Positions 29,548-45,265 of a DNA stretch of 64,000 nt are shown one piece after another. The DNA is from a virus. The notes beneath the pieces were generated by a model. It searched no databases, had not been told where the DNA came from, and saw only the letters and a list, made by a program, of their open reading frames with translations. The DNA lies in the IMG/VR virus record IMGVR_UViG_3300050343_000135, positions 10,215-74,214 of that record; one strand, 5' to 3'. Position numbers and translations under genes: made by a program. Numbering within the stretch: the stretch's first letter is position 1; each line of letters begins with the position of its first letter.

Positions 29548-29563
29548 ATTTCTCTCCTTTTGC

Positions 29564-29849
29564 TTAGCGTTTACGTCTAGTAGTACGCTTCTTTCTTTTT
29601 GCGAAGGTTCTTACCATTGTAGGCTTACCTCCGACTCCTTGTTTAACAGATCTTTTCCTGCGAATTGCTGAACGAATCTGTGTTTTAGTCATTCTAGCGG
29701 CTTTGGCTCTTGGTACACATTTGGGATATTTTCCTTTCTTGGAAGTTTTACGTCCACAAGGCATGTATCCACCGCCTTTCTTAGGTCTTCCATATATCCA
29801 CCCATTTTTCTTTAAACCATTTACTTAGGCCACCTTTAGGTTTTGCCAT
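29564..29849 (-). CDS. Small basic protein (one indel)
   Basis: MAKPKGGLSKWFKEKWVDI joins PCGRKTSKKGKYPKCVPRAKAARM. Confidence 0.7.
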
Positions 29850-30040
29850 TATTTTCTCTTACGTCCAGTACCCATACGATACCTTCCGCCTTTGGCTTTG
29901 TATGTTTTTACAAGCCAGCCATTAGCATACGCTGATGGATATACTTTAAACTTGCGTTTGGCTTGTGCCTTGATCCTAGCATATAGCGTAGGATTTGTAG
30001 GCACAGGCTTTTTCTTAACTGCTTTTCTTTTTCTTGGCAT
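29849..30040 (-). CDS. Small basic protein
   Basis: MPRKRKAVKKKPVPTNPTLYARIKAQAKRKFKVYPSAYANGWLVKTYKAKGGRY. Confidence 0.75.
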   Translation of the reverse strand: MPRKRKAVKKKPVPTNPTLYARIKAQAKRKFKVYPSAYANGWLVKTYKAKGGRYRMGTGRKRK

Positions 30041-30041
30041 T

Positions 30042-30290
30042 TTACTCTGGATCGCCTGGAACCCAGTATGGATGTTCCCCATCCACATTCTCTAGCATTT
30101 CCATGGCCTCTGCGGTATAGTCCGCAATGATTTTATTTGGACCTTCAAATTCGACACCAGCTGTGTCCCATTCAACAGTTACAGTTAGTTCATTACCATT
30201 TATGGCAGTAACTCTAGAGTCTCTCCATGTTCTACGATTACCGTTCTCATTTTCAGGACCGTATATTCTCCATAGCTCATTAATCTCCAT
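30042..30290 (-). CDS. Small acidic hypothetical protein
   Basis: 82 aa, coupled to its neighbours. Confidence 0.55.
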   Translation of the reverse strand: MEINELWRIYGPENENGNRRTWRDSRVTAINGNELTVTVEWDTAGVEFEGPNKIIADYTAEAMEMLENVDGEHPYWVPGDPE

Positions 30291-30474
30291 CTAAAGTGTC
30301 CCAATTTAGTACTCTAACATCTATTGCAATGTTTTCACCAATCTGATTCTCATCAAAAGAGTCCTCTTCTATTGTCATATGGAATGCAAAATCATCAATA
30401 TAATATACAGTACCGTCTTGGTACCCATTATCATTGTATGCTCTTACGTTGTGTCCAACCTTCGGCAACGCCAT
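30280..30474 (-). CDS. Small acidic hypothetical protein
   Basis: 64 aa with an AGGAG RBS. Confidence 0.55.
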   Translation of the reverse strand: MALPKVGHNVRAYNDNGYQDGTVYYIDDFAFHMTIEEDSFDENQIGENIAIDVRVLNWDTLDGD

Positions 30475-30612
30475 TCTATTCTCCTATATTCTGAGTAGTA
30501 ATTTTAGCGTCTTTTTGAGCTTTAATCATAGCATCTTTGATGTCGACTTTGCCATCTCTGTTCTGGTCTTTGCCTAGTTATGATGTTCCATATAATTCAT
30601 TAAATATTCCAT

Positions 30613-30756
30613 TTACTTTTTCCTTTTTAGTATTGCTCTCTGTAAGGCTTTAGGAAGTTTTTTCTGCGCTGCAGTTAAACCCTTCTTCTTTTTACCTTTT
30701 CCTTTTTTCTTTGGTCTTCCGACCTTTGAACCGTATGTTCCTTTACCTCTTGGCAT
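30613..30756 (-). CDS. Protamine-like 47-aa basic microprotein
   Basis: MPRGKGTYGSKVGRPKKKGKGKKKKGLTAAQKKLPKALQRAILKRKK; GGAGG RBS. Confidence 0.7.
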   Translation of the reverse strand: MPRGKGTYGSKVGRPKKKGKGKKKKGLTAAQKKLPKALQRAILKRKK

Positions 30757-31015
30757 GATCACCTCCCCATAGTCCTTTCGGACACTTTGCCTTTTTTATT
30801 TGTACTTTTAAAGGCATGTAACATTTACATATGTTACAATAGTTAAACTTTGGCACTAGTTCTGGACACTTTCTTACAAATGTCAAGTCTAGCCTGTTGG
30901 TTGACGTGAGTAAAATCTAGCGTGCATCTTTCTGTATTGTAGCTTACGCCTACTCTTGTTACCGTCTATAGTCTCTAAACATATGTATCTACCTCTCTTT
31001 TCTTGTAGTCAAGTA

Positions 31016-32882
31016 TTATTTTTCGATGGTATATATTTTAACTGGTTCCGATTTTCCTTTTACAGTTACATTCATCTAAAAACTTATAGTCAAATCCATC
31101 TACTAAACTGTGTTCAGATATTATTAAATCTGCATCATAGTTCTTACAACTTGATTCTAACCTAGCAGCAAGATTAACAGCATCACCCAGAACGGAATAG
31201 TCAAACCGAGTACTACTACCAAAGTTTCCAACAACGCAGGCCCCGTATTGATTCCAGCTCCTGTGTTAATTTGGTCAAGGCCCTCTTCCTCTAAGTGTTT
31301 CATTTAATTCTCCTAGTGCTACTCTCATTTCAAGATAGCTGCTTCTGTGGCTTTTCTTTCTTGTTCTTCTACATCTAGAGGAGCGTTCCAAAAGCCATAA
31401 TGCAATCGCCCATATATTTATCAATTGTTCCTTCGTGTTTAAGAATTATCTCAGTCTGGTTGTCTAGAAAACGATTTATAAGTCTGTGTAAGACCTTGTG
31501 GGTCTGATTGGTATTTTTCAGAAATTGGTGTGAATCCTCGAATATCAGAAAAAAGAAAAGTGAGTCGTTTTGTCTCCCCACCCAATCTCAGTAATGTGAA
31601 GGGTCTTTTTGTAATTTTTTTACCAAAGCAGGGCTAACATACGTCCCGAATTGTTGTTTAATTCCATTCTCAAGAAAACTGCGTAATGAAATTCCTGAAA
31701 GTTATGATAGCTCCAGAATAAAAACCCGATAAAATTGTGCCAGAAACGTCAAACTAAGTAAGAAGATTTGTACATTTCCAGGGTTAAAGTATATAAGGCC
31801 TCCAATAGTAAGTGCTAATACTGGAAGTGACAGCCATATACGAGATGCTGTAATCCAAAGTAATAGTAGAGCCAGAAGGGCGGCTCCTAGCTCTACTGCT
31901 ACACTCCATGTCGGTTGATGGATGGGCTGTTTCCTTCTATAAGTGAATGAAGTACGTTTGCTTGTATTTCATGAGGGTATACTGCTCCTTGTGCTGTAGG
32001 CACGGGATTGGTTACACCTTCAGCAGTTACTCCAAAGATAACAAAGGGAGCAGGTATAGGATTCTCCATGTACTCTGCTGCAGTTTGTCTATAGAAAACA
32101 TTTTGTTGAATCCATACTCTTGCGTTTGCGTCTGTATGTATAAGTGGATAGTTTGGTATACGTACCCATTCTATGCCACCTTCGCTTGTCTTAATTTGAT
32201 AACTTGGATCACCGACACCAACTCTCAACATCTCTAACGCAAAAGAGGGATATAATCCGTCTTGGCTACTTACGACTACGGGAAGTCTTCGTACGACTCC
32301 GTCTACTTCTGGGCTTGAGTTTATTAGTCCCTACGCCTTCTGCTGTTACTTGTAACTTTGGTAGTTGTCTTAAAATTCCGGGATAGTTGAATAGCCATTC
32401 TTTTGGGTCACCTCCTAGTTGAGCAGTACCTACATGAGGCCCTGCTTTTGATGCCTGTGTTGAAGCTGCATAAGCTAAAACACTTGGTTTATTTGATAGT
32501 GAGTAGGCAAGTGTGTTGTCGTACTCAATACCGCGTAAGTCGGGATCGGGCATGAGAATCGTAAAACCGGGAACACCCGATGTCATGTCTATCATGCTTG
32601 CGAATAGGCTTCTTGGTAGTGGATAACCTCCGTAGGCTTCTACTATCTCTTCATCTAAATCTACAAGAAGTATGTTTCTCGTTTTGTAGCATGTTTCTGT
32701 TAAATTTGCACCTAGACATGCTTCAAAGATAATTCGTAAATGTTTCCATTATAGTTCAAGGAGAAAGTATTAGGAACTTGTTTATCCTCAAAATGTTTAG
32801 TCTCTTTTAAATAAGGGTTCCAGATTAAGTATTTATGTAGTCCTTCATGAGAAAATATCGTACTATTATCAAGTTTGTTCAT
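31016..32882 (-). CDS. CHASE2-domain class III adenylate/guanylate cyclase, heavily broken by read indels
   Basis: CHASE2 fragments ([38 protein letters not shown]), TM segment, and cyclase core [59 protein letters not shown]. Confidence 0.85.
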
Positions 32883-33096
32883 ATTAGATCCCATCCATGA
32901 TTTGCTATAGCGTTAAGTATAATAAAGATACAAGTTGCCATATGTGTAAACCACCAAATAGTTCGTATGATAGCTATCTTATCTGCTTGAGAATCAGTTT
33001 CTCCTACTTTCTCTCCAAGGGACTTTAGCCCACAAGTCTCCAGTATTTATTCATTGTCTATAATTATTTTTGTATTGTTTATTACGGCTAAAGTTA

Positions 33097-33396
33097 CTAG
33101 GAAGTATTGGCAAAGAGTACAAAACTTTCATCTTCTTCCCAAAATATTCCTCCGTATCTTGCAAGTTCAGTCCACACTAATTTATGTGCTATAAGTCTTG
33201 TCAAAGAAGGGTCTGCAGGTAAAAAAGGATTTGCTTCTGATGCGTAGCCTTGTTGTACTGCATGATAAGTAGTAAGTACATCTAATGTATTGATTACAAA
33301 GTAGTACTTATGACTGGGTCTTTCAAAGTCAATTCTCATTTGGAACTTGCTACGTTCTATGAGTTTGCCGTCTATCTCTATTTGGTATAGTCCCAA
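33097..33396 (-). CDS. Hypothetical protein
   Basis: NTLDVLTTY...GYASEANPFL motif. Confidence 0.55.
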   Translation of the reverse strand: MGLYQIEIDGKLIERSKFQMRIDFERPSHKYYFVINTLDVLTTYHAVQQGYASEANPFLPADPSLTRLIAHKLVWTELARYGGIFWEEDESFVLFANTS

Positions 33397-33402
33397 GGAA
33401 GA

Positions 33403-34542
33403 TCAACCTCCAGATTGACGGATGCGAATAGTGGATTGACCACCAGAATTAAGAATAATGTTATATGCTTTACCATCTTGCTCAATTATTATATTATAGC
33501 TTGTCTCACCATTGAGATCTAAGTTGTACTGATTGTGATGACGCTACGAATAAGTAGTTATCTTTTCAGCGTCCCCAAAAGTTAGTAATTTGTGTAGTTG
33601 GATCTTGTCCAAACAATGTACCTTGTATATCAAATTCTGAAAAAAGCTTGATGCTCCTCGTTGTTCTGCTATTGCAAGAGCATCTAGTTCTTCGATAACT
33701 TCTAATAAGTCTTCGAGAAAGTTTACATCTAAGTAATCTATATCAAGTTCATTAAAAGCTAAGTTATCTTCTGTCAAGGTAAGTCTATATCTAACCCGTC
33801 GTAAGCGAGGTAATCGACATCAAGAATATTGTCATGAGAGTCATCATTTCCAACTCTGTCCTGCAATTCATCTTCTTCTTCATTTTTAGGAGGGCTTACT
33901 ATAAGCATATTGTCTATGATGTCTAAAGTGATAAGTCTAGTATCATTGGTTTGTAGTTGGTGTACTTTCCCACATACTAGTAACAGTAGATTCATAAGGT
34001 TTATTTAATATGACTTCTCCCATAGCCTGTTGCTAACTACAATCTCACCTGAGGGAAGTCCCGTATTTGTGTCTGGTAAGTAAGTATTACTAAACTTCTA
34101 CCCAACTCATCTACAGTAACTGTGAAGTCAGTTCCACGAATTGCAATACTGTGATGTTGGTGTTTCGAGATCTTAATATTTTTCTTTATTAATCTTCACC
34201 AATCCACCTGTTATAAATCGTGCTGTTCCACTTGCAAACTTTCATCGACATCTGTGACTTACTAGGGATTGGGTCAAAGATTACTTTGTCTATTATAAGT
34301 TTACTGTGTTCTGTTAGTCTGACTACTGAATTGTCTAGGAATGTTATACCTACTCGCCCATTAGCTGTACGTACATCATCCATTTGCTCAATGTCAAATC
34401 CTAAGTCCGTTTCGTAGGGCTTGTCTCTAAGTACTTGCCCTACTCCACGTAGTTCTGTAATGCTTCCTATATCAGCATGAAGTGGTAGTCCCACCATCAT
34501 TCTGAATAACACAAATATTGCTATTGCTCGCATTACTTTCAA
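33403..34542 (-). CDS. FecR-domain protein, split by indels
   Basis: Signal peptide, IGSITELRG, DDVRTANGRVGITFLDNSVVRLTEHSKLII, IAIRGTDFTVTVDELG, acidic linker. Confidence 0.8.
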
Positions 34543-35189
34543 TTTTCAACCAGTCGGCTGCTAAAGTTGACTGCTGTTTAATAACCGCAGTATTACTACT
34601 CTCCCTCTAAGTCGAGGTAGAAGTATTTAGCATCGCTTGAACTAGCTCCATATCCGGATTGGATAAAAGTTAAGTTATTGCTGTCTCCAAGAATATCCAT
34701 ATACATAGTAGCATAATCTAGCATCTATGTCTACAGTTGCATCATTACTATCACCATCGATAATCCAATCAATGTCTAAGTAACTTGCTCCTGAAACTTC
34801 TGCAATGTCTATATCTGCAATGTTGAAGGAACCAGTGACATCAATGTTAATATCATTGCTGTCTGCTGTGTTTAGCCCGGTTGTGTCCATGCTAAAGTCC
34901 CATTCATTGGAGTCTCCATCAAATTCAAAAAAGCCAGTAAAGTTATCACCAAATATTCCATCGGTGAAAAACTTATTAGAGCTTCCTATTTGATTGATGT
35001 CGAGTGTCATTGTTGATCCATTTAGAATTGCTGCTGTCATTGAACCTGTAATTGCATCATCACCACCAATTATATTGCTAGATCCGAGCTGTTCAATATC
35101 AATAGACTTGCATTATCTCCTGTCTGGTCAATATAGATTTCGTTGTCTGCGAACAGACCAATTGATAAAAATAAGATTAAAAACCTCAT
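34472..35189 (-). CDS. Secreted curlin-like beta-repeat protein
   Basis: Signal peptide then DNEIYIDQTGDN, IEQLGSSN, INQIGSSN, FDGDSN, VTGSFN, IDGDSN repeats; directly downstream of csgG. Confidence 0.65.
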
Positions 35190-35190
35190 C

Positions 35191-36057
35191 TTAGTCTCCC
35201 ATATAGTACTTCCAGTACCCTTGTTCCTGTCCTTGCGATACCTACTAATTCAGCTACTGCTGTTTCAATGGCTGCTTGTATTGCTATATACTTAGGCTTC
35301 GTTCATGGCGTTGCCAGTTTCGAACTCAATCAAGTCATTATCTGAATGAAACCTAAAGTAATCGGTTACTGACTAAGCCCTACGGAGAGGATTGCTTTTG
35401 AAGTAAGGATGTCCAATAAGAATTTCTCCTGTACTCACAGAAACCATTCTTATTGATATCACCACTTTATCCTCACGATATTGCTTAGAGTTTCCTATAC
35501 CTAAATAGCGGGCTCCAACTCCCCCGGTTAGCAAGTTAGTATTATAATCTACTAATACCTCCTTCTAAAATAAGACTCCAGCATACAGTAAGTGGTAACT
35601 GTTTGTCTTTCGTCATCAAATTTTTCACGAGTAGAACGAATTAACTGACGCTCCTTAGTTAGGTGGTCTAATCCTTTTCTTTCTACTACTTTGAAGAAAT
35701 TTTGATATGTTTGAGTGCTCTTATTAAGTAAGCTTCTGGAGCTTGTGTTATGGCACTAGAGAAATCTGCGATTCCATCTCTTGATTTTCTTTGACCTGTT
35801 AGGTCTTCAAATTTATATATAGCAACAACGGGCGTTCTTGCCGGTAGGGGTAGATTTTGTATTGCTTTTGTTACTGGTTTTTCAAGTATAGCGTCTCCTG
35901 AGAAGCATTTTGCTTTACTTACGACAATGTTTACTAAGATATTTGTAGTCGTTGTTCTGGATTCCATCATACAAGGAGATACATAACCGATAATATGCCA
36001 GTTTGCACAACTAGAAACCAAAGTCGCCAATAGGGATAGTAATAGTAGTTGTCTCAC
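35191..36057 (-). CDS. csgG: Curli secretion channel CsgG, split by indels
   Basis: Lipobox LVSSC; VAIYKFEDLTGQRK...FSSAITQ, VVERKGLDHLTKERQLIRSTR, TGGVGARYLGIG.SKQYRED. Confidence 0.9.
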
Positions 36058-36533
36058 CTGTTGCTCTCATTAAATATGGTCATTGTTATTGTAATTCCAT
36101 CTGTTGTCCATGTAATTCAGATTATCATACAATTGAAATGATCCTTCCTCTGCAGGGTTTTCTCCGAATAGGCTATCAACTAGCTGTCGGGATAACTGTG
36201 CATATACTCTACTTTCAAAGTTCTTAATAAATCTTGCGAGAGTTGTATTATCTGCTTCTCTCTTTGCTGCGTCTGCTAAAGCTTTGATCTCAGCTTTTAC
36301 TGCGTCCTTTTTTGTTTGTTCTTGTGAGTCAATCGTTAAGTAATGACTTGATGTTCCCGAGCCTGAGAATGAAGGACTCTTAAATCCGAACTTGATTTCA
36401 TCTGCTTGCTAGTTCCCATATAAGTAGAGGAAGTATAGTGAGCCACCACCAGTGTGTAACTGGTTGGTACTCTTTCTTATTAGACAAATTGTCTGCTGTT
36501 CGTTGAAATGACTTCTCTTTTATCTGTCTTCAT
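36011..36533 (-). CDS. csgF: Curli assembly protein CsgF-like, split by indels
   Basis: EIKFGFKSPSFSG, RFIKNFESRVYAQLSRQL, C-terminal GETTTITIPIG; upstream of csgG. Confidence 0.8.
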
Positions 36534-36762
36534 TTTCTTTCAATTGTAAAACTGTGTCTAGTTTCTTTTGGAGACGAATCATATCGTTATCCAACATTCT
36601 TATCTGGTCTATTAGACTAAGAATAGTCATTTTCATATCTTCAATTGCAGGATCAATCTTTTCTGTTATAGTAGTCCATACAAAGTATACGAAATACCCT
36701 AAACCGACCATTGCAACAATTGGAAAACCAAACTGCTGAATTGCATCAATCACGTCTTGCAT
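36520..36762 (-). CDS. Small single-TM coiled-coil protein
   Basis: IQQFGFPIVAMVGLGYF...IRMLDNDMIRL. Confidence 0.7.
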   Translation of the reverse strand: MQDVIDAIQQFGFPIVAMVGLGYFVYFVWTTITEKIDPAIEDMKMTILSLIDQIRMLDNDMIRLQKKLDTVLQLKENEDR

Positions 36763-37069
36763 CTATACTCCCACTCTCTACAAAGTTTTCTGCTCTAGAG
36801 ATTCTATCTAAATCGGGTGTAAGTCCAAGTGCAGTACTGACGCTCATGTCTATTCGAATCATATCATTGTTCATAGTCTTAATACGAGTAATTAGCATAC
36901 TTGAAATACCTTTGACTTCTTGAGTATCTCCAACTACATCATCCATTATTTTTCGTATGATTAAAAAGATAAAACCGCCCATGAACAATGCGGCGGCTAT
37001 TGGTGCTCCTACTTGAGCAATAACATCAAATATACCTAGCTCTTCCATGGACACCACGGTAAGACCCAA
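36746..37069 (-). CDS. Small single-TM protein, paralogue of its neighbour
   Basis: IAQVGAPIAAALFMGGF...IKTMNNDMIRI. Confidence 0.7.
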   Translation of the reverse strand: MGLTVVSMEELGIFDVIAQVGAPIAAALFMGGFIFLIIRKIMDDVVGDTQEVKGISSMLITRIKTMNNDMIRIDMSVSTALGLTPDLDRISRAENFVESGSIDARRD

Positions 37070-37241
37070 TATTTATAAAACATTTATTATCTCCTGATTA
37101 ATTGCCATACAACCAAACATACCGCCAAAGACCACTAATTGTACCACACTTGCGTATGCTACCTGTCTCATTGGATGAATCTGTACTATCTTCTCTATCC
37201 AGCTCTCCGAAGGCGATAAGTTTACTGCTTGTAATATCTTT

Positions 37242-37559
37242 TTAGAATCCAACGCTTACTCCACACCCACATCTGTAGGTTTCCTTTGGATTAATAAAAA
37301 CAAAACTTTCATTTAATCCCTCTATTTTATAATCTAGTGTTAATCCTTCTATGTACGGGGCGGAAGTCGGGTCGACTCTAAATCGAATCATCCCCCAATC
37401 CAGTACCAAATCACTTGGATAAGTTTCACGACTAAAATCAAAACTATACTCCATACCGCCGCAGCCGCCCCCAGTAATACCAAGTCTAAAAGACGGGTTC
37501 TCCTGTTGGCCTGCTTTCTGTACAAGTCTAGTATACGCTTCATTTGTTATTTCAATCAT
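37242..37559 (-). CDS. iscA: A-type Fe-S carrier (IscA/SufA/ErpA, HesB family)
   Basis: RLGITGGGCGGMEY...INPKETYRCGCGVS. Confidence 0.92.
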   Translation of the reverse strand: MIEITNEAYTRLVQKAGQQENPSFRLGITGGGCGGMEYSFDFSRETYPSDLVLDWGMIRFRVDPTSAPYIEGLTLDYKIEGLNESFVFINPKETYRCGCGVSVGF

Positions 37560-37851
37560 CTCTTTTCCAACTTATATCGGACTTGGTCTCAATAGCGTCC
37601 TGAGCCGCCTGTATGTAATCTCTATCTTCGTCAGAGAGTACAGACCAGAATTTACTTATAGTTAATGTATGTTCATAAACTTCGTCGGGTTCTTGAAAAT
37701 GATAGTCATTTTCCATCATTTCCTGGAGCTTGTCCATTCTTTGATTTATCTTGGCTCTTAGTCCGAAGATTCTTTCCCAACCATCATCATACTTTTTGTT
37801 TGACGATTTCGTTGTGAGTGTATCTCCTGTTATTTCGTTTTTTGTTGCCAT
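37552..37851 (-). CDS. Hypothetical protein
   Basis: 99 aa, between iscU and iscA. Confidence 0.6.
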   Translation of the reverse strand: MATKNEITGDTLTTKSSNKKYDDGWERIFGLRAKINQRMDKLQEMMENDYHFQEPDEVYEHTLTISKFWSVLSDEDRDYIQAAQDAIETKSDISWKRDD

Positions 37852-37896
37852 TTTCTATTACCACTCTTACGACTCTTTGTATTCGGCCGCTTTTCA

Positions 37897-38310
37897 TCAT
37901 ATTGTTAAATTTTTTCCACATTTGTTTTCCCAGTTCTCAATTGCTTGTTTAATTGAGTCTTCGGCTAAAACAGAACAGTGTAGTTTTATGGGAGGTAATT
38001 CTAATGCCTCCGCTATGTCTTTATCTTTTATTAGTTTTGCTTCTTCTATTGTTCTGCCTTTCAGCATTTCTACGAACATTGTGGAAGAGGCGATTGCACT
38101 ACCGCAACCATAGGTTTTAAACTTGACATCTATTATCCTATCAGTTGAGTCTAGTTTAAGTTGTAGTTTCATTACGTCACCACAAGCGGGAGCGCCTGTA
38201 ATGCCTGTTGCTACTTGGGGGTCTTTAGGGTCGAATCTTCCGACGCTAAACTGTTTCGGACTATTTAAAACTTCATAAAACCTTTCGGTGACTTTTTTAC
38301 TGTACGCCAT
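37897..38310 (-). CDS. iscU: Fe-S cluster scaffold IscU
   Basis: GAPACGDVMKLQ, KFKTYGCGSAIASS, LPPIKLHCSVLAEDSIK. Confidence 0.96.
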   Translation of the reverse strand: MAYSKKVTERFYEVLNSPKQFSVGRFDPKDPQVATGITGAPACGDVMKLQLKLDSTDRIIDVKFKTYGCGSAIASSTMFVEMLKGRTIEEAKLIKDKDIAEALELPPIKLHCSVLAEDSIKQAIENWENKCGKNLTI

Positions 38311-38770
38311 CAGTGTTCTTTAAGAGTTTTTCCATTAACTTTCCATAGTTACCGGATCCGAAACTGCCATCATTTACTTGAATATTTGTTTGTTGTTTGA
38401 TACTCGTAGCCTGTGCTTTTTCTAGTTCTGCTTGAGCCTTGATTTCGTCCATTCTCATTTTGTGTGCCATTTGAAGTAGGTCTGCCAGGTCTTTACTAGT
38501 ATAAATTTCTGACTCTTCTGCTTCTTCCATTTTTTTATCGATTAGTGTATCTAGTGTATCTGCTAGTTTAAATCTATTTCTATATCCCATATCTAAATAG
38601 ACAGTGTCAATATATTGTTTGACTTCCCTACGGTTTAGCATTTCGCTTATAACGTTTTGCTTTACTCCTAATCTATGGCTAACAACGGATATAGAGCCGT
38701 GCTGCAAATATGAATTTGCGATCTCTAACCCTTCTGGACTTATTTTTGTTGTTAATGCTACGCTTGACAT
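38297..38770 (-). CDS. terS: Terminase small subunit (T5-like)
   Basis: ISPEGLEIANSYLQ...REVKQYI..GYRNR...AHKMRMDE...QTNIQ..NYGKLM resembles T5 TerS as I recall it. Confidence 0.8.
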   Translation of the reverse strand: MSSVALTTKISPEGLEIANSYLQHGSISVVSHRLGVKQNVISEMLNRREVKQYIDTVYLDMGYRNRFKLADTLDTLIDKKMEEAEESEIYTSKDLADLLQMAHKMRMDEIKAQAELEKAQATSIKQQTNIQVNDGSFGSGNYGKLMEKLLKNTDGVQ

Positions 38771-38776
38771 AGTATA

Positions 38777-38805
38777 ATTATACTAAAAATGGAACCATAT
38801 GTCAA
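38777..38805 (-). promoter_or_regulatory. Late promoter heading terS and the accessory island
   Basis: TTGACA-17-TATAAT; the predicted +1 falls on the terS ATG. Confidence 0.8.
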
Positions 38806-38976
38806 GAATTATTTATCCATATGTATCATTATGATACTACACGGCGCTTTTTATATACTTGCAAATTTTTTAAAGTTGTACGTGCGGGGGAGCCTGAGCG
38901 TGGGTGTAAATGTCGGTCTATGAACCCCCCACCTATGCCGACCAAAAATTGAACAATACCCCTAGAAGGAACAGAG

Positions 38977-39048
38977 ACGCTCTCTAAGGCTCTCTAATGA
39001 AAAAGAGGTGCATAGGCATTAAAAAATAAATAACGCCTTAGAGAGCGT
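38977..39048. repeat. 14-bp inverted repeat near the putative genome end
   Basis: ACGCTCTCTAAGGC (38977) and GCCTTAGAGAGCGT (39035). Confidence 0.8.
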
Positions 39049-39050
39049 TT

Positions 39051-39079
39051 TTGCTATGATTCGCGATATATATCATAAT
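39051..39079 (+). promoter_or_regulatory. Pre-early promoter
   Basis: TTGCTA-17-CATAAT at the strand switch. Confidence 0.55.
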
Positions 39080-39355
39080 AGGTCTATCGTTAATGCGACT
39101 AAATAACGGCTAGATTCTCGGCGGGTTTATAAATATTACTGCCCAATGAGATATAAATTACTACCTTGCATATTTAGAAAACAAGATTAAACGCTGTTTT
39201 AATTGGTGAAATACTTCGGTAAAACTTACAACGATTAGCTTAGGATTTAGGCTTTATATATTCCCAATATATAGAGTCCCATGAAGCGGAACTCTCGGAA
39301 CAACGAGACAAAATAAAAATTAAAAAACTAACTAACTACATAGAGGTAAATAACT

Positions 39356-39517
39356 ATGAAAAAGAAAAAGAACTATAAATTTAAACTCTATCAGATGGTC
39401 AACGGAAAAAAGGTTAATTACGGCTCAACGCCTAGCATTAACTTTGCACGTGCTTCTGTAAAGAGACAACGAGAAAAAGGTATTGAGGCTTTTTGGATAC
39501 CTTGCATTTATAAATAA
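39356..39517 (+). CDS. Small basic pre-early protein
   Basis: GAGGT RBS; MKKKKNYKFKLYQ..., 53 aa, followed by hairpin 39529-39557. Confidence 0.55.
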   Translation: MKKKKNYKFKLYQMVNGKKVNYGSTPSINFARASVKRQREKGIEAFWIPCIYK

Positions 39518-39574
39518 ACTAACCATAAAGGCTCTTAGGCACTCGCTAAGAGCCTTAAATTAAAGGGGGGTCTT

Positions 39575-39784
39575 ATGACTCATTCAGAACTAAACGAACT
39601 CATTAGAACGGCACACACGCTGTCTGATGATGATTTACTAATGGCATTTGAGCAGGTCGGCATAATTGCTGATTTTAATACTTGCTCGTTATCAATGGAG
39701 GAATACAATCTAATTAAGGCTGTATATTTCTTACTTGATTCAATGTGCAAGAATAGAGAATTAATAACTAATATAGAGGTTTAA
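39575..39784 (+). CDS. Hypothetical pre-early protein
   Basis: 69 aa with a G-rich RBS. Confidence 0.55.
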   Translation: MTHSELNELIRTAHTLSDDDLLMAFEQVGIIADFNTCSLSMEEYNLIKAVYFLLDSMCKNRELITNIEV

Positions 39785-39845
39785 AATCTATAGGGTTAGA
39801 GTCGTTACCTAATACAAAAACGACTCATTTAATGGAGGTCATAAA

Positions 39846-40010
39846 ATGACTATTATGAAAGAAAAAAAGCCAACTCTTAAACGTCAAGAGGTGGTCGAAT
39901 TGGTACTCGATAAATTGAAAGAGCAAGGTATTGAGGATATGACAATATTTGCAACATATAAGAGATTAAATCTTAAAGGCTTGTTGCATTTTTTAGAGGT
40001 AACAAAATGA
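39846..40010 (+). CDS. Small pre-early protein
   Basis: GGAGG RBS; 54 aa, stop overlaps the next ATG. Confidence 0.6.
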   Translation: MTIMKEKKPTLKRQEVVELVLDKLKEQGIEDMTIFATYKRLNLKGLLHFLEVTK

Positions 40011-40774
40011 AGATTGAAAGAAAATTAAATGCTTTGGTATTAGATACCGAAACGTGCTTTAAATCAGAAAATGCCAATATCATTCTTGAGATTGGTTGGA
40101 CTGTTGGAAATGTACTTGATAAAACTGATATACCTACTTCGCGTAGGTATATTGTTGCTGATACTTTATTTAATCCTGAATTGCATTGGCACTCTCAAAA
40201 ATTGAGTGCCATTCATTCTGAACTATCAGATGCACCCGAGGGTTTAAGAGTAAATTATGGTAATGATATGAGGTATATAAAATACATGAAAGAAGCTTAT
40301 AGGCTGTCATGTTTAGGTGGTGAAGCATTGGGCGAAGTTGTTCTCCCCTGGGCTAGAATTCTTGACCAATTAAACAAAGATTTAGCCATGAGCGATTGCA
40401 TAGGTGCTTATAATTTCCCTTTTGATTTAAGGGCGATTCAAACAACTACCAAACGCTTTCATCATCATGCTTATAATAATATATATAAGATTCCGCATTT
40501 TTGTCTTATGCAAATGTCGGCAAATGAAATTGTTGATAGATGGTATTTCAAAAAGATAGATTCTTTAACCGAGGAGGAGAAAATATTATTTAAATCTAAA
40601 TCGGGCAAGAATCTAGGCTACTCGGCTGAAATAATGGCTAGGTATATATCTGAAGATTTAGGATATATCGAGATGCACACAGCCGAGGAGGACTCTAAGA
40701 TTGAATATGAAATCATGCAATACTATTTTAATGATAAAGAGCTAGGGATGATAAATTCTTTAGCGACTATCTAG
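40007..40774 (+). CDS. DEDDh 3'-5' exonuclease (DnaQ/RNase T superfamily)
   Basis: VLDTET, EIGW, AYNFPFD, HTAEEDS motifs. Confidence 0.85.
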   Translation: MKIERKLNALVLDTETCFKSENANIILEIGWTVGNVLDKTDIPTSRRYIVADTLFNPELHWHSQKLSAIHSELSDAPEGLRVNYGNDMRYIKYMKEAYRLSCLGGEALGEVVLPWARILDQLNKDLAMSDCIGAYNFPFDLRAIQTTTKRFHHHAYNNIYKIPHFCLMQMSANEIVDRWYFKKIDSLTEEEKILFKSKSGKNLGYSAEIMARYISEDLGYIEMHTAEEDSKIEYEIMQYYFNDKELGMINSLATI

Positions 40775-40861
40775 GAAATATGTAAAAGCGGTGTCTTGGA
40801 CAAAAATCCGAGATGGCTATAAAAACTATAAACAAAATGAACTATTTAAGGAGGTTCAAAA

Positions 40862-41440
40862 ATGAGCGATTATAAACAATTAGAACTCCCTTTCATTGTC
40901 GAACATGAAAGGGGGGTTGATTATCAATTTGATAGATACTTTCGACACATGGAAGCATTTAACAAAGATGCCGATACTGTCTTTATCTATGATTTAGATT
41001 ATACGACTTTTGAAAGACCGAAAATATTCACCCACAAACCCACCTATTCATTTATAGGTGGTTTTAAATGGGAATATAGCCTTGCATGGTATATCTTTTG
41101 GGACTGCTTCATTGTGTCTCTATTCGATAAGCCCTTACCCTTACTAAAGGATATGCAAAAACATATGCAACTCGGTAGAAAGGTTGGCATTTTCTCGGCT
41201 CGTTCGGTTAAATGGTATACGGCTTTGTGGGTAAGGTTGAAAATCGGAAAGGTTGAATTTCTAAAATTCAGACCAAAGAACGACAACACCAAAGATGATA
41301 TTTTAAAAGAGACGGTACTTGCAAGAATGTTGCGAGGAACATTCATTCTTTGCTTATGCTTCTAGAATCGTGGCATGGGATGATAGACCCGACATTATCA
41401 AGATGTATAAGCAGAATGATGTTGAGGGGTTTCTCGTATG
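40862..41440 (+). CDS. HAD-superfamily phosphatase-like protein, C-terminus shifted by an indel
   Basis: FIYDLDYT (motif I), IFSAR (motif II), RPKNDNTKDDILK as in PNKP-type HADs. Confidence 0.55.
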
Positions 41441-41695
41441 ATAGATATAACAATGACTGTTCTTTTTTGGGTTGGGGTGACTTCGGTTGCCTCGGCTCTT
41501 GCTTACATTCCAAAAGATATGCGACTTTTTGAGGTTGTTATAACTTTGGGTAATATATTAATCTTATTAACTAGCCCATTGATGCTACAATGGGAATTCA
41601 CTATCTTTTTAATGACTTTCCTTATTTGGTCGGCTCAAATTAAAATGGGTAGAGATGCTAAAACTTATGGAGGTGCTAGAAATGGCTACAAATAG
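41438..41695 (+). CDS. Small membrane protein
   Basis: Two to three hydrophobic segments. Confidence 0.55.
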   Translation: MIDITMTVLFWVGVTSVASALAYIPKDMRLFEVVITLGNILILLTSPLMLQWEFTIFLMTFLIWSAQIKMGRDAKTYGGARNGYK

Positions 41696-42129
41696 ACAAA
41701 AACAAAATAAGATAAAATTAGATAAATGGCTTTCGCAATGCTTCGGCTACAAGGTGGCAAAATGGTTCGATTTAATCCTGTTGGCTTTGGTTTCGTGGGC
41801 ATTGTTTATATTTGCAATGTGGGTGGCGTAATGAAACGATCACTTATTAAATATAGCTTATATGATCTATGCGATTTATTAGCGGAAGCAATTGCAAAAC
41901 CTAATGAGAACTGAAAAAATTGATTCATGAGATAGCTGGGGAACTTTCCCACCGAAAAACTTTTGGAGCAAAAATTCTTGTTCAATTTTGTAATGGGTAT
42001 TTTACTAATCTAAAATAATCTTTTGGGTTGGTTAGTTTTTTGTTTTCGGCGGGTTAATTTATACTAACTATTAGTGAAATTTTGCTACCCCGCCGAAGAC
42101 AAATTTTTTTGCCCGAAAGAAAAAAGCTG

Positions 42130-42148
42130 AATGAGAATCATTCGCATT
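42130..42148. promoter_or_regulatory. Fur-box-like operator
   Basis: AATGAGAATCATTCGCATT, a near-perfect 9-1-9 palindrome resembling the gammaproteobacterial Fur consensus AATGATAATnATTATCATT. Confidence 0.6.
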
Positions 42149-42153
42149 TAGAG

Positions 42154-42183
42154 TTATCCCCACTATCCACAGACTTATCCACA
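42154..42183 (+). promoter_or_regulatory. DnaA box cluster
   Basis: TTATCCCCA (42154), CTATCCACA (42163) and perfect TTATCCACA (42175) in tandem, downstream of an AT-rich tract. Confidence 0.7.
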
Positions 42184-42334
42184 GGTGAATTTTTATACAG
42201 CGTGAGCGCTTTAGCGCCGACAAGTAGTAGTATTATTATTATTTTTGTAGCCGCAGGCGCCAAAGTAGTAGTATTACTATGATGAGTAGTCTTTCTGCGA
42301 CCGCCGCCGCGAATTTGGATTAGTTCCTAAGTCT

Positions 42335-42363
42335 ATTATACCACAGCGCCCGGTAAATGTCAA
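42335..42363 (-). promoter_or_regulatory. Leftward sigma70 promoter firing into non-coding DNA
   Basis: TTGACA-17-TATAAT with extended -10; back-to-back with a rightward promoter at 42400-42427. Confidence 0.7.
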
Positions 42364-42458
42364 GAGAAACGCAGAAATTAATTTTCTTTCACAAATCCCT
42401 TGACATTTCCAATTGGCGCTGTATAATAGTATACATAATAAAGACAAAGGAGAACATT

Positions 42459-42620
42459 ATGAAAAACGAAAAAACAGAAAAAGCAAAAAGACCAAACAAA
42501 AAATACTTGCTAAAAGAAATTAGCGAACTATCTGGCAAAAGAATCGCTGAGTTAGACTCACTAGGCAGAAGCAACATTGAAACAATCGTCTGGATTCGCG
42601 ACATGGTCAAAGGAGCGTAA
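42459..42620 (+). CDS. 53-aa protein resembling the C-terminal half of A2
   Basis: Own promoter (42400-42427) and the RBS AAGGAGAACATTATG, identical to that of the A2-like gene at 43437. Confidence 0.7.
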   Translation: MKNEKTEKAKRPNKKYLLKEISELSGKRIAELDSLGRSNIETIVWIRDMVKGA

Positions 42621-43009: not shown

Positions 43010-43154
43010 GACTTATGCGAAGGTTTGCACCGATTTTGCGAGAAAGATTGTGCCAGTTTCGCGTCCGGCCCCCGAGAGTTCGCTAGCGTTAATTTATGAG
43101 GAATTTCTTTCGCAAATCTATTGACAATCTTATCAGGCTTCTATATAATATATG

Positions 43155-43360
43155 TATCTTTTGAGGGAAATGAGAAAAACCGAACACAGAGGCTAACTAT
43201 TAACAGTTAGAGAGAGTATAGGTGAGTCGCTTCAGGGGGGTGTCCAAGCATGCTAGGGGATATTAGAAATGCAAAAACGAACAAGAGCTTGGCCCGATTC
43301 ATTTCCACCAAAAGACCTATACTAAGGTATGGTTGCGAAAGGAGAACACGCAAAACATAA
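43155..43360 (+). ncRNA. Candidate structured ncRNA 1 (~200 nt)
   Basis: Promoter TTGACA-17-TATAAT (43121-43149), no credible ORF, ends pair (TCTTTTG/CAAAAGA, GGAAATGA/TCATTTCC), and a 9-bp long-range pairing 43215-23 with 43315-23. Confidence 0.55.
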
Positions 43361-43436
43361 AAAACTCCTTGACAAAACCTTATCCGCAGTATATAATAGT
43401 ATTATAAAAACAAACAAAAAGAATAAGGAGAACATT

Positions 43437-43763
43437 ATGGCATCAGCTAAAAATTACACAGAAGAAATGGTAGCTTCAATGACAGAAGCATACAAAGCCA
43501 ATCCTACAAGAGAAACAGTAGATGGCTTAGCAAGAGAATTTGGCAAGACTACAAGAAGTATCATTGCTAAACTTTCAAGAGAAGGCGTATATGTTGCTCA
43601 ACCAAGAACAACTAAATCTGGTGAAGCAATAGTAGCTAAATCTGAGTTGGTTTCTGAAGTTGCTACTATTCTAGGTGTGCAGGTTGAGGACATAGCATCT
43701 CTAGAAAAAGCAACAAAAGTCCACCTCAAAGAACTGGTGACAAGACTATCCCAAGTAGTCTAG
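43437..43763 (+). CDS. T5 A2-like DNA-binding protein
   Basis: NYTEEMV...LAREFGKTTRSIIAKLSREGVY...KSELV...IASLEKA; promoter 43369-43397; true start 43437 by RBS. Confidence 0.7.
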   Translation: MASAKNYTEEMVASMTEAYKANPTRETVDGLAREFGKTTRSIIAKLSREGVYVAQPRTTKSGEAIVAKSELVSEVATILGVQVEDIASLEKATKVHLKELVTRLSQVV

Positions 43764-43832
43764 TTGCGAACTCTGAGAACCTCGTGAAAAATAACACTTG
43801 ACACGAGGTTACCGCCAGAGTATAATATATTT

Positions 43833-44105
43833 ATAAAATTAAGAAACAGTAGAGAAGTGATAAAAGTAGGCTGACCCCCTCATTGTCACTTGGTTAAAGT
43901 GAACCTACTCTAGCTACTAAACATACCCTATCAAGTAGCAGATAGTATTTAACGGGAAAGTGGTGGGATTAAATACTGTTTTTTAGCTAGATAACTCTAG
44001 CGTGGTAAGTGTCTACGGAAGCACGCACAAAAGTGAAGTAGCAAGTTCGACTCTTGCACCACCTAGTAAAAGTTAGTACCAATCTAACATCTAGCTAAAA
44101 ACCAG
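43833..44105 (+). ncRNA. Candidate ncRNA 2 containing an anticodon-less tRNA-like domain
   Basis: Promoter 43798-43826; consecutive hairpins; D-arm, canonical T-arm GCAAG-TTCGACT-CTTGC and acceptor-like stem at 43997-44066, inside a 12-bp closing helix. Confidence 0.65.
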
Positions 44106-44167
44106 TTAAGTAGTAAATAAGTTAAAAATTTACTTGACACAAGGTTAAAAACGTAGTATAATATATA

Positions 44168-45163
44168 TTACAAAAAGGGGAAAAGTAGTTGGAAACAGGA
44201 AAAAATAAATGATTGAGCTTCGGCCAATAAATAATCCTCCAACAACTTGACCGAGTGAGGCGTCACATAAAACACTGCCGGATGCTCTTTAGACATAGAT
44301 GAGATTCACGTTAAATGTAAAAATGTCCGCTTTTGATAGTCGTTATGAGACATACCTTCCGCAGCAAGGAGAGAGTCATAACCGCATGAACTGATGCGTA
44401 AATATTTGAGTGGATACTTCCAATAAGTCCCCTGAGTACATAGTACGATTGCGAAGGACTCCAAAGTAGGGTGAGTAGCGACTAACACAACGGCAATAAG
44501 CAAAGCAGCAACGAAGCAAGAACAGTTCGGCACTTTATCGAAAGTATAAAATCGATTTGTTTTACTGCATTAATGGGCGTTACGACCTTCGGGTTTACTA
44601 AATGCAGAGGTAATTGTAAGCACAGGATATAGCCAAAATATCGGTGTAGAGTGAGGAAACCACGCTGTTCCTATCCCACGCCTCAACCGTTTCGGTAGCA
44701 GGAGTGTAGGGCAAGGACGAGAAGAAAACCAGTCTACTGCGACACGGGCGGACTAGATATTTATATCATAGCAACCAGTCAATAGTAGCAAACTCGGGCA
44801 AGGGAAAGGATGATGTTTCCTAGCCGCAGACTGCGAGAGCGAGGTGTCTTCGGGACGGGGGCAGTAGGCAACTAATTAAGAAGTGCAGACTTGGAACACT
44901 ATAAAAGCTAAGCAGCAAGAAGAACGGCAGTCGCTCTGTCAACTACTGAATAGTAGATATCTTAGTCAATAGCATTTGGACTTAAAACAGTGCATAGTAG
45001 ATAAGTGATGTGAAATAAGCAGTGCACCTTCGATTGAAGTTTGTAATATCCATCACCTCTAGCTACGCAGTGGACAGGTTCGTGAGTAATTCCAACACGA
45101 CCACTTTAAAATAAACTTACGTTCGGAGTTTAAATAGGCAGTTGAGATACTGCCTATTTTTTT
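44168..45163 (+). ncRNA. Candidate giant structured ncRNA (~1 kb)
   Basis: Consensus promoter 44134-44162, strong terminator 45132-45163, no plus-strand ORF of 60 aa or more, many nested helices and cUUCGg/GNRA loops. Confidence 0.75.
45132..45163 (+). terminator. Intrinsic terminator
   Basis: AAATAGGCAGT/ACTGCCTATTT stem plus T-run. Confidence 0.85.
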
Positions 45164-45265
45164 GTTTCGTAGAACTATATCTCAAAATTTTAAGGTCTTA
45201 AAAAATAGTTCTTGACAGACAACTTATTTCTCTGTATAATATATGTATATAAAAAGGAGACAAAG

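What the first reader, a model, noticed from the sequence alone, without database searches (positions are those of the whole stretch)
43981..44100. tRNA mimic with no anticodon, embedded in a longer RNA
Seen: acceptor-like CTAG(C)GTGGT/ACCACCTAG, D-arm GTGT-CTACGGAA-GCAC with the GG, a stub CAC-AAAA-GTG in place of the anticodon arm, a 5-nt variable loop, and a canonical T-arm GCAAG-TTCGACT-CTTGC. There is no CCA. The unit sits inside a perfect 12-bp helix TTTTAGCTAGAT (43981)/ATCTAGCTAAAA (44089), preceded by three hairpins. Established: tRNA-elbow mimics exist (bacterial Y RNAs, the tmRNA tRNA-like domain), and host anticodon nucleases act in anti-phage defence. Inference: an uncleavable decoy for tRNA-targeting enzymes or uncharged-tRNA sensors, or an RNase P processing signal.
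Basis: partly seen in the sequence, partly recalled or inferred. Interest (0 to 1): 0.8.

Follow-up and report, generated by a model that had tools for sequence, protein, structure and literature searches.

The report
Anticodon-less tRNA mimic in marine T5-like phage
An uncultured marine T5-like phage makes a small RNA that ends in a conserved copy of a tRNA body that has no anticodon and no free acceptor end; it resembles the 'tRNA-like stable RNAs' long annotated in phage T5, whose job is still unknown.

Summary
ARAGORN and Rfam call nothing here, yet the fold is real. I found 48 distinct versions in marine viral and metagenome contigs and none in 185,579 prokaryote genomes. They keep the acceptor-type helix, an invariant D arm, the T arm and the short stub: 93% of cells are paired and 15 of 21 pairs show compensatory changes. 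No version has a 5-bp/7-nt anticodon arm. Three sequencing runs from different studies reproduce the window's letters, so it is not a sequencing error.

In most relatives the element lies 35-58 nt after the stop codon of a 144-aa protein gene and just before the next perfect promoter. In this lineage it has its own perfect promoter and a 5' hairpin domain. Both ends are locked in helices of at least 9 bp, usually inside an outer helix, and there is no CCA. It therefore cannot decode or be charged, and it is a poor canonical RNase P/Z substrate.

The closest known things are the 'tRNA-like stable RNAs' (RNA1, RNA2, RNA3) and the 719-nt RNAX annotated in phage T5. The D arm matches T5 tRNA-Ala, and the 3' half of some lineages matches T5 RNA2.

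Function is untested. My best guess is a tRNA-body decoy or docking RNA; a cis-acting processing or stability signal is the main rival. This scan has noted other anticodon-less phage tRNA mimics on other DNA.

The parts
43798..43826 (+). Promoter P1 (TTGACA-17-TATAAT, 12 of 12) that drives the RNA holding the mimic
   Evidence: The same promoter lies 170-176 nt upstream of the element in the window's close relatives.
43834..43980 (+). 5' domain of the P1 RNA. It has four hairpins, one with a conserved loop containing ACCCUA (about 43913-43938).
   Evidence: Fold and alifold on 7 relatives. The same domain occurs without the mimic in L003/L004.
43981..43992 (+). Outer helix, 5' strand
   Evidence: Flank complementarity across 58 contexts averages -18.8 kcal/mol against -9.6 for shuffled flanks.
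43997..44006 (+). Acceptor-type helix, 5' strand (C44001 bulged)
   Evidence: All 9 pairs covary.
44007..44025 (+). AA, then the D arm GTGT-CTACGGAA-GCAC, then G26
   Evidence: The D arm is the same in all 48 versions except one loop position, A or T. The pattern scans fixed this by design, but it also holds in the loci found through the neighbouring protein. It resembles the D arm of T5 tRNA-Ala.
44026..44035 (+). Stub CAC-AAAA-GTG in place of the anticodon arm
   Evidence: All 3 pairs covary, 95% of cells paired. The arm is 3-4 bp with a 3-5-nt loop in most versions; longer arms occur in a few lineages, none canonical.
44036..44040 (+). Variable loop AAGTA
44041..44057 (+). T arm GCAAG-TTCGACT-CTTGC
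   Evidence: 3 of 5 pairs covary. The T loop fits TTCRANT in all versions, which the pattern scans required.
44058..44066 (+). Acceptor-type helix, 3' strand; no discriminator and no CCA
44072..44088 (+). Extra 3' hairpin inside the outer helix (three-way junction)
   Evidence: The same architecture is seen in L077, L097, L007 and L009.
44089..44100 (+). Outer helix, 3' strand
44134..44162 (+). Next perfect promoter (P2, drives the 1-kb RNA). It marks the downstream limit of the unit.
   Evidence: In most of the 80 contexts a near-perfect promoter starts within 39-143 nt of the T stem.

Best explanation
It is a genuine, selected, non-decoding tRNA-body mimic. It derives from a phage tRNA and keeps the acceptor-type helix, the D arm, the T arm and the elbow nucleotides (GG in the D loop, TTCRA in the T loop). 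The anticodon arm is cut down to a 3-bp, 4-nt stub.

In this phage it forms the 3' domain of an early non-coding transcript of about 265 nt from the promoter at 43798. In most relatives it sits in the 3' untranslated tail of a 144-aa protein gene.

Its ends are locked in a 9-bp helix and a 12-bp outer helix without CCA. So it cannot read codons, cannot be aminoacylated, and is not built like a normal RNase P/Z substrate.

Most likely mechanism (inferred, not shown): the RNA persists as a folded unit and displays the tRNA core (elbow plus the invariant D arm) to a host or phage factor that normally binds tRNA bodies. It would act as a decoy, sponge or docking site early in infection. This is the same kind of thing as the 'tRNA-like stable RNAs' of phage T5, whose function is also unknown.

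Confidence that it is a conserved tRNA-like RNA is about 0.9. Confidence in the decoy or docking mechanism is about 0.35-0.4.
For: Structure and selection:
- The fold has z = -4.2.
- 48 distinct versions give 93% paired cells and 15 of 21 pairs with compensatory changes, far above the shuffle and slide controls.
- U.G pairs fit only the + strand RNA.

tRNA origin:
- Long-arm variants nearly pass Rfam's tRNA model (32.1 and 26.7 bits against a cut-off of 29).
- The family model scores T5 tRNA-Ala at 40 bits, well above every other T5 tRNA. The D arms match at 14 of 17 positions for the window, and 18 of 21 for L012 when the start of the next stem is included.

Not a decoder:
- ARAGORN and Rfam are negative.
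- No version has a 5-bp/7-nt arm.
- G3.U70 occurs in 1 of 48 versions.
- The genuine tRNA-Glu next to it in relatives encodes CCA, and the mimic does not.

Locked ends:
- All 9 pairs of the acceptor-type helix covary. By eye, lineages that look unpaired in the fixed register pair once a bulge is allowed.
- The flanks are complementary.

RNA product in its own right:
- It has its own perfect promoter in the window's lineage. A near-perfect promoter lies 47-49 nt upstream in L120, L133, L205 and L154.
- One RNA-library contig covers 43850-44087 while that run has no cover on either side.

Precedent: T5 annotation lists RNA1, RNA2 and RNA3 as tRNA-like stable RNAs of unknown function.

Selective constraint: the D arm, T loop and variable loop barely change while the stems vary freely. 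This fits recognition of the core rather than of an acceptor identity.
Against: - No binding partner, no RNA ends and no phenotype are known.
- Cover of the unit in four RNA-type runs is low, 2-23, against hundreds to thousands for the neighbouring 1-kb RNA. The data are assembled contigs, and small structured RNAs are usually lost from such libraries.
- In 49 of 58 contexts the element has no promoter of its own and lies 35-58 nt behind a stop codon. That fits a cis-acting 3' element as well as a free RNA.
- An anticodon nuclease would have nothing to recognise here.
- The invariance of the D arm is partly by ascertainment, because two scans used it as the pattern.
Confidence: 0.38

Rival explanations
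1. It is a cis-acting processing or stability signal, 'tRNA punctuation' like plant-mitochondrial t-elements or mascRNA. Host RNase P, RNase III or 3' nucleases would recognise the tRNA-like fold or its long closing helix. They would cut there, or be stopped there, which defines and protects the 3' end of the upstream message and separates it from what follows.
For: - In 49 of 58 contexts it lies 35-58 nt after the stop codon of the same gene, and 39-143 nt before the next promoter.
- In six contexts a tRNA-Glu without its own promoter follows directly, so transcripts must run through the element and be cut by RNase P just behind it.
- The annotated ends of T5 RNA2 coincide with the ends of its closing helix.
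- The outer helix, internal loop and acceptor helix together look like phage RNase III sites. This last point rests on my own knowledge of T7 R1.1-type sites.
Against: - The acceptor helix does not end at 7 bp with free flanks. It is 9-13 bp and usually continues into an outer helix, with no discriminator and no CCA. From established knowledge, bacterial RNase P and RNase Z prefer an unpaired leader and trailer.
- The RNA contig 43850-44087 bridges the expected RNase P site (weak).
- A plain hairpin would be enough to block exonucleases, so this reading does not explain the conserved elbow and D arm.
- Each neighbouring unit has its own promoter, so punctuation is not obviously needed.
Confidence: 0.3
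2. It is a docking module for another RNA or machine. The elbow would stack on an RNA platform, as tRNA elbows do on the RNase P specificity domain, T-box stem I or the ribosomal L1 stalk. Candidates are the neighbouring 1-kb RNA or the ribosome.
For: - The mimic lies about 100 nt upstream of a conserved 1-kb RNA in many relatives.
- T5's 719-nt stable RNAX carries a tRNA-like module near its 5' end and is followed by a tRNA.
- From my own knowledge, large phage RNAs such as GOLLD and ROOL often lie next to tRNAs.
Against: - The two modules occur independently. The 1-kb RNA is present without the mimic in L003/L004 and others, and the mimic is present without it in L010, L083, L099 and others.
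- No site complementary to the D arm exists in the window.
Confidence: 0.12
3. It is a transcription terminator or insulator that shields the strong downstream promoter from read-through.
For: A closing helix followed by a run of 5-6 T occurs in several lineages (L005, L012, L107, L125). The element always lies just upstream of a strong promoter.
Against: - There is no T run in the window (…CTAAAAACCAG) or in many other lineages.
- The base of the helix is A+U-rich.
- tRNA-Glu is transcribed through it in six contexts.
- The T run falls where the UP element of the next promoter would lie.
- The scan calls no terminator here.
Confidence: 0.07
4. It is a decaying tRNA pseudogene with no function.
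For: It derives from a tRNA, and its distribution among relatives is patchy: it is absent from most of the 74 loci found through the neighbouring protein.
Against: There are compensatory changes in three of four helices across 48 versions, and the core is kept unchanged in contigs whose neighbouring protein is only about 60% identical. The stub itself covaries.
Confidence: 0.03

Closest known systems
Phage T5 'tRNA-like stable RNAs' RNA1, RNA2 and RNA3, and the 719-nt stable RNAX (GenBank AY543070.1 annotation)
   Same: - The carriers are related: the tail-tube protein is 32-33% identical to those of Demerecviridae.
- They are non-coding RNAs with a tRNA-like fold, no usable anticodon and unknown function.
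- RNA2 folds into a closing acceptor-type helix, a T arm and a 3-bp stub CAC-AA-GUG.
- Nucleotides 73-113 of RNA2 align with some marine lineages at about 36 of 45 positions (score 41; best of 300 shuffles 21). RNA2 is the best-matching T5 RNA for 4 of 10 lineages tested.
- RNAX holds a tRNA-like module near its 5' end.
   Different: - RNA2 is 125 nt, has a separate D-like hairpin and a long branched arm with a second T-loop hairpin, and has free ends. The marine element is a minimal 69-nt core with locked ends.
- The family model scores RNA2 at only 14.6 bits.
- The T5 RNAs lie inside a cluster of about two dozen annotated tRNA genes, whereas this phage record has no tRNA gene.
- Homology is probable for some lineages but not proven. 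The 11-nt identity with the window's acceptor strand is not shared by the window's nearest relatives.
mascRNA / menRNA of MALAT1 and NEAT1, and plant-mitochondrial t-elements (PMC11693755, PMC1920247)
   Same: All are tRNA-like folds with a degenerate anticodon arm, placed at the 3' end of a longer transcript or just behind a coding region.
   Different: Those elements have 7-bp acceptor stems with free flanks, and are cut by RNase P and RNase Z. mascRNA then receives CCA. Here the helix is 9-13 bp and clamped, and no cleavage is shown.
Bacterial Y RNAs (YrlA; Rfam RF02553; PMC4201824)
   Same: Both are tRNA-elbow mimics that cannot be aminoacylated, and both are found in bacteria and some phages.
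   Different: Here the arms follow the natural tRNA order and the open helix is the acceptor. There is no Rfam match. A Ro60 gene could not be searched for (one search failed).
tRNA-like domain of tmRNA
   Same: It has an acceptor and a T arm, with no anticodon arm.
   Different: tmRNA has free ends with CCA, G3.U70 and alanine charging, and no D stem. Here there is no CCA, G3.U70 occurs in 1 of 48 versions, a full D stem is present, and ARAGORN finds no tmRNA.
Canonical tRNA, best match T5 tRNA-Ala(UGC) (Rfam RF00005)
   Same: The D arm, T arm, variable loop and elbow nucleotides are shared. The model scores T5 tRNA-Ala at 40 bits. Long-arm variants score 26.7-32.1 bits on RF00005.
   Different: There is no anticodon loop, no 7-bp acceptor with free ends, no CCA, and A8/C14 in place of U8/A14. 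The window's copy does not reach E <= 1 on RF00005.

Membership tests
Canonical tRNA (RF00005) | Anticodon arm of 5 bp with a 7-nt loop | tested here: not met
   The window has 3 bp and 4 nt. None of 48 versions is canonical. ARAGORN finds 0 genes.
Canonical tRNA (RF00005) | 7-bp acceptor stem with free 5' and 3' ends, a discriminator and CCA (encoded or added) | tested here: not met
   The helix is 9-13 bp, continues into an outer helix, and has no CCA. Whether CCA is added after processing cannot be tested here.
Canonical tRNA (RF00005) | D arm, T arm and elbow nucleotides (G18 G19, T54 Psi55 C56, A58) | tested here: met
Canonical tRNA (RF00005) | Score above the Rfam gathering threshold | tested here: not met
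   No match at E <= 1 in the whole 74-kb record. Only the L170 variant passes, at 32.1 bits.
T5-type tRNA-like stable RNAs (RNA1/RNA2/RNA3) | Encoded by a T5-like (Demerecviridae-type) phage as a non-coding unit next to strong early promoters | tested here: met
   The tail-tube protein matches Demerecviridae at 32-33% identity. Perfect promoters. T5 annotation.
T5-type tRNA-like stable RNAs (RNA1/RNA2/RNA3) | tRNA-like fold that lacks a usable anticodon | tested here: met
T5-type tRNA-like stable RNAs (RNA1/RNA2/RNA3) | Sequence homology to a T5 stable RNA | tested here: inconclusive
   The local alignment to RNA2 is top-ranked in 4 of 10 lineages (scores 31-41, against 30 or less for the other T5 RNAs). 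The structural model gives only 14.6 bits.
T5-type tRNA-like stable RNAs (RNA1/RNA2/RNA3) | Accumulates as a discrete stable RNA in infected cells | not testable with these tools
   Only assembled contigs were available. One RNA contig covers 43850-44087, which is a weak hint.
mascRNA / t-element type processing signals | Placed at the 3' end of a transcript or just behind a coding region | tested here: met
   49 of 58 contexts lie 35-58 nt behind a stop codon.
mascRNA / t-element type processing signals | Acceptor stem of tRNA length with unpaired flanks, cut by RNase P and RNase Z | tested here: not met
   The geometry is not met. Cleavage itself was not testable.
Y RNA (YrlA) | Closed acceptor-like stem, open helix in the anticodon position, Ro60 partner | tested here: not met
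   The arm order is that of a natural tRNA. There is no Rfam match. The Ro60 search failed. The YrlA topology is from my own recollection.
tmRNA tRNA-like domain | Free CCA end, G3.U70, tag reading frame | tested here: not met

The most novel reading that the evidence does not exclude
T5-like phages, from coliphage T5 to uncultured ocean phages, may share an old class of end-locked tRNA-body mimics. Made early in infection, these would neutralise a host factor that recognises the tRNA core, for example a tRNA-directed immune nuclease or a tRNA-processing enzyme. That would finally give a function to the T5 stable RNAs, which are still annotated as of unknown function.
Probability: 0.2. Interest if true: 0.8.

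Novelty: new variant of a known kind. Interest (0 to 1): 0.52.

Why it matters
Phage tRNAs are now known to counter tRNA-cutting defence systems: T5's own tRNAs defeat PARIS (PMC11464382). By contrast, the tRNA-like RNAs of T5 that cannot decode have had no assigned function since they were first annotated.

This marine family gives three things:
- a minimal, strongly covarying version of such an RNA;
- a view of which parts selection keeps (the elbow, the D arm and the locked ends) and which parts are free (the acceptor sequence and the stub);
- a link to a tractable model, T5 and E. coli, where deletions in the tRNA region are viable (PMC12483538, which cites Glukhov 2018).

It also adds a family that is missing from Rfam and from tRNA finders.

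Tried and rejected
- **Standard detectors.** ARAGORN on the window and on 51 related loci found no tRNA at the element. Rfam gave nothing relevant at gathering level or at E <= 10.
- **Nucleotide searches of cultured phages.** The cassette and the 74-nt core gave no real match. The exact T-arm-plus-acceptor string was absent from viral contigs.
- **Bare 16-mer scan.** The D-arm pattern alone also hit unrelated coding DNA, roughly a third of the 53 hits, so I added the T loop to the pattern.
- **Prokaryote genomes.** No match (the first try failed).
- **Weak model hits in L003/L004.** They lie in coding DNA.
- **Mini-ORF idea.** A putative peptide MITLSNQF ending in the outer helix was rejected. 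The Shine-Dalgarno-like AAGGA abuts the start codon with no spacer, and indels shift the frame in many lineages. The conserved sequence is a covarying hairpin.
- **Partner complementary to the D arm.** None in the window.
- **'A2-like' label for the 144-aa protein.** No BLASTP similarity to T5 A2 or to T5.067, and no Pfam family.
- **tRNA-handling enzymes near the element.** Pfam scans of 20 window ORFs found none.
- **Cultured Vibrio and Aeromonas T5-like phages.** The model hits only true tRNAs.
- **The cassette against the T5 tRNA region.** Only short matches, up to 51 nt and mostly 12-25 nt; several fall at or next to the window's perfect promoters.
- **RNA evidence.** All runs were assembled contigs, so transcript starts, ends, strand, level and CCA addition could not be read. 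Uncovered parts and relative depth are not evidence.
- **Ro60 (TROVE) search of the genome.** It failed.
- **Literature.** I found no paper in the held library that describes the T5 stable RNAs. A 2023 catalogue of 10,006 viral RNA candidates may contain this motif, but I did not open its supplement.

Full report
**What is there**

- a perfect 12-bp outer helix (43981-92 / 44089-100);
- a 9-bp acceptor-type helix with one bulged C (43997-44006 / 44058-66);
- AA;
- a D arm GTGT-CTACGGAA-GCAC;
- G;
- a stub CAC-AAAA-GTG;
- a variable loop AAGTA;
- a T arm GCAAG-TTCGACT-CTTGC;
- an extra hairpin at 44072-88 that makes a three-way junction with the outer helix.

The minimum-energy fold reproduces all of this (z = -4.2, 0 of 200 shuffles as good). 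ARAGORN finds no tRNA or tmRNA in the window. Rfam finds nothing at gathering level or at E <= 10. Rfam's tRNA model does not reach E <= 1 anywhere in the 74-kb virus record.

**Setting**

The window is part of an IMG/VR contig. The phage is a distant T5-like siphophage:
- its tail-tube protein is 32-33% identical to those of Vibrio, Aeromonas, Salmonella and Escherichia Demerecviridae;
- PHROG matches include the central tail fibre J, NAD-dependent DNA ligase and a DnaB-like helicase.

Five perfect TTGACA-17-TATAAT promoters lie on the + strand at 43121, 43369, 43798, 44134 and 45212, with a terminator at 45132-59. No reading frame longer than 75 codons lies between 43764 and 45212.

The mimic therefore lies behind promoter 43798 and a hairpin-rich leader of about 150 nt. 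It lies ahead of promoter 44134, which drives a 1-kb non-coding RNA that another agent of this scan has already followed up.

**Is it real and selected**

Loci found through the upstream 144-aa protein hold the element in 12 of 74 cases. Pattern scans then gave about 35 true viral hits and 85 marine metagenome contigs. There was no hit in 185,579 prokaryote genomes.

This yields 48 distinct versions. On the model-based alignment:
- 93.2% of cells are paired, against a shuffle mean of 69% and 36-54% with slid partners;
- 15 of 21 pairs have changes on both sides;
- all nine acceptor pairs, all three stub pairs and three of five T-stem pairs covary;
- the D arm is the same in every version except one loop position (A or T) (MAFFT-only version).

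The constant D arm is partly by design of the scans. It also holds in the loci found through the protein, where the model would have tolerated changes. U.G pairs fit only the + strand.

**The short arm is genuine**

In most versions the arm is 3-4 bp with a 3-5-nt loop. A few lineages have 6 bp with a 9-nt loop, 5 bp with a 3-nt loop, or a longer irregular arm. None has 5 bp with a 7-nt loop.

Contigs of three sequencing runs from different studies cover 44022-44036 without any listed difference. Further metagenome loci share the window's version of the core.

**Origin**

The long-arm variants score 32.1 and 26.7 bits on Rfam's tRNA model, whose cut-off is 29. The family model scores T5 tRNA-Ala(UGC) at 40 bits, against 24 or less for every other T5 tRNA. 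The two D arms agree at 14 of 17 positions for the window, and at 18 of 21 for L012 when the first bases of the next stem are included.

The element is thus a tRNA derivative that lost the distal part of the anticodon arm. It does not keep alanine identity: G3.U70 occurs in 1 of 48 versions.

**Context across relatives**

- In 49 of 58 non-redundant contexts, a frame of about 90 codons or more (over 110 in nearly all; the 144-aa protein gene) stops 35-58 nt upstream. A small covarying hairpin with a CCUAA loop lies between them.
- In most contexts a near-perfect promoter begins 39-143 nt downstream.
- In six contexts a tRNA-Glu(UUC) that encodes its CCA follows directly, with no promoter of its own.
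- The window's lineage differs. A perfect promoter and a 5' domain replace the small hairpin. That domain occurs alone in L003/L004.
- In four other contexts a near-perfect promoter lies 47-49 nt upstream.
- The element's flanks pair in most lineages (mean -18.8 against -9.6 kcal/mol for shuffled flanks). Where they do not, the acceptor helix itself runs on to about 13 bp.

**Expression**

Only assembled contigs were available. In one true RNA-seq run, a 238-nt contig covers 43850-44087 exactly, and that run has no cover on either side. Other runs bridge the flanks at low depth. This is a weak hint that the leader and the mimic exist as one RNA. Ends, strand, level and CCA addition could not be read.

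**Closest known**

The GenBank record of phage T5 (AY543070.1) annotates the following, all with unknown function:
- RNA1 and RNA2, as 'tRNA-like stable RNA';
- RNA3, as 'putative tRNA-like RNA';
- RNAI, RNAIII, RNAIV and RNA2H;
- a 719-nt RNAX, which has its own promoter and is followed by tRNA-Arg.

RNA2 folds into a closing acceptor-type helix, a D-like hairpin, a long branched arm, a 3-bp stub CAC-AA-GUG and a T arm. Four orthologues support the closing helix, the D-like hairpin and the T arm, but not the stub. RNA2 is conserved in 436 cultured phage records and is rarely annotated.

Its nucleotides 73-113 align with some marine lineages at about 36 of 45 positions (score 41; best of 300 shuffles 21). 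RNA2 is the top-scoring T5 RNA for 4 of 10 lineages, yet the structural model gives it only 14.6 bits. An 11-nt identity between the 5' end of RNA2 and the window's acceptor strand is not shared by the window's closest relatives, so I give it little weight. RNAX contains a tRNA-like module near its 5' end.

I therefore file the element as a new, minimal, end-locked variant of the T5-type tRNA-like RNAs. Homology to RNA2 is possible but unproven. Cultured Vibrio and Aeromonas T5-like phages have no member.

**Mechanism**

Shown: it is a conserved, folded, tRNA-derived RNA element that cannot decode and has no acceptor end.

Inferred: selection holds the elbow, the D arm and the variable loop fixed. 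It lets the acceptor sequence drift and keeps both ends clamped. I therefore favour a display function, meaning a decoy, sponge or docking site for something that binds tRNA bodies, made early in infection.

The main rival is a cis-acting processing or stability signal. Its position just behind a stop codon and the read-through into tRNA-Glu support that rival. The non-canonical helix length and the clamped flanks weaken it. Terminator and pseudogene readings are unlikely.

T5's tRNA-rich region tolerates large deletions (PMC12483538), which fits an accessory role that depends on the host. It also makes the T5 RNAs a practical test bed.

**Relation to earlier notes of this scan**

Other agents have reported anticodon-less tRNA mimics in several unrelated phages. 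One family sits just behind stop codons in actinobacterial phages. These are unchecked notes. They show that the kind recurs in the scan, and I used them only as leads.

Noticed in passing
window 44134-45164: A non-coding RNA of about 1 kb with its own perfect promoter and terminator, conserved at 75-94% nucleotide identity in relatives whose neighbouring protein is only about 60% identical. One oligo-dT/SMART-type run shows template-switch-oligo letters just before 44177, which suggests a 5' end there. Another agent has already followed it up. T5's 719-nt stable RNAX may be an analogue, but blastn shows no similarity.
   Followed up: partly
window 43913-43938; L003 4592-4626: A hairpin whose loop contains ACCCUA is kept in the window's lineage and in L003/L004, which lack the mimic. 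In the main family, the small hairpin before the mimic has a CCUAA loop within UACCCUAAG. The shared single-stranded motif may be a binding site.
   Followed up: partly
L005, L012, L086, L107, L131 and others, 60-130 nt after the mimic: Relatives carry chains of tiny units, each driven by a promoter and about 75-110 nt long. These share a motif CCCGTTGGGACTGAG. They look like further small RNAs of the same early region.
   Followed up: no
L083 4711-4785 (-), L121 471-545, L126, L127, L176, L206: A tRNA-Glu(UUC) with encoded CCA is inserted 26-40 nt behind the mimic with no promoter of its own. It is the only tRNA in those loci.
   Followed up: partly
L224 (T5 28500-42500); 436 phage records: T5 RNA2 is conserved across Tequintavirus and Epseptimavirus genomes but is almost never annotated, and some records call hypothetical proteins over it. 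Partial matches occur next to tRNAs in Acinetobacter T4-like phages Acj9 and Henu6.
   Followed up: partly
window 43329-43763: The 144-aa protein upstream has more than 1,300 marine homologues, and a few carry Pfam PF26822. It has weak PHROG matches to DNA-binding or 'D5-like' regulators, and no BLASTP similarity to T5 A2.
   Followed up: partly
window 43121-45240: Five perfect 12-of-12 sigma-70 promoters lie within 2.1 kb, against about 6.7 promoter-like sites of any quality expected in shuffles of the 3-kb region.
   Followed up: no
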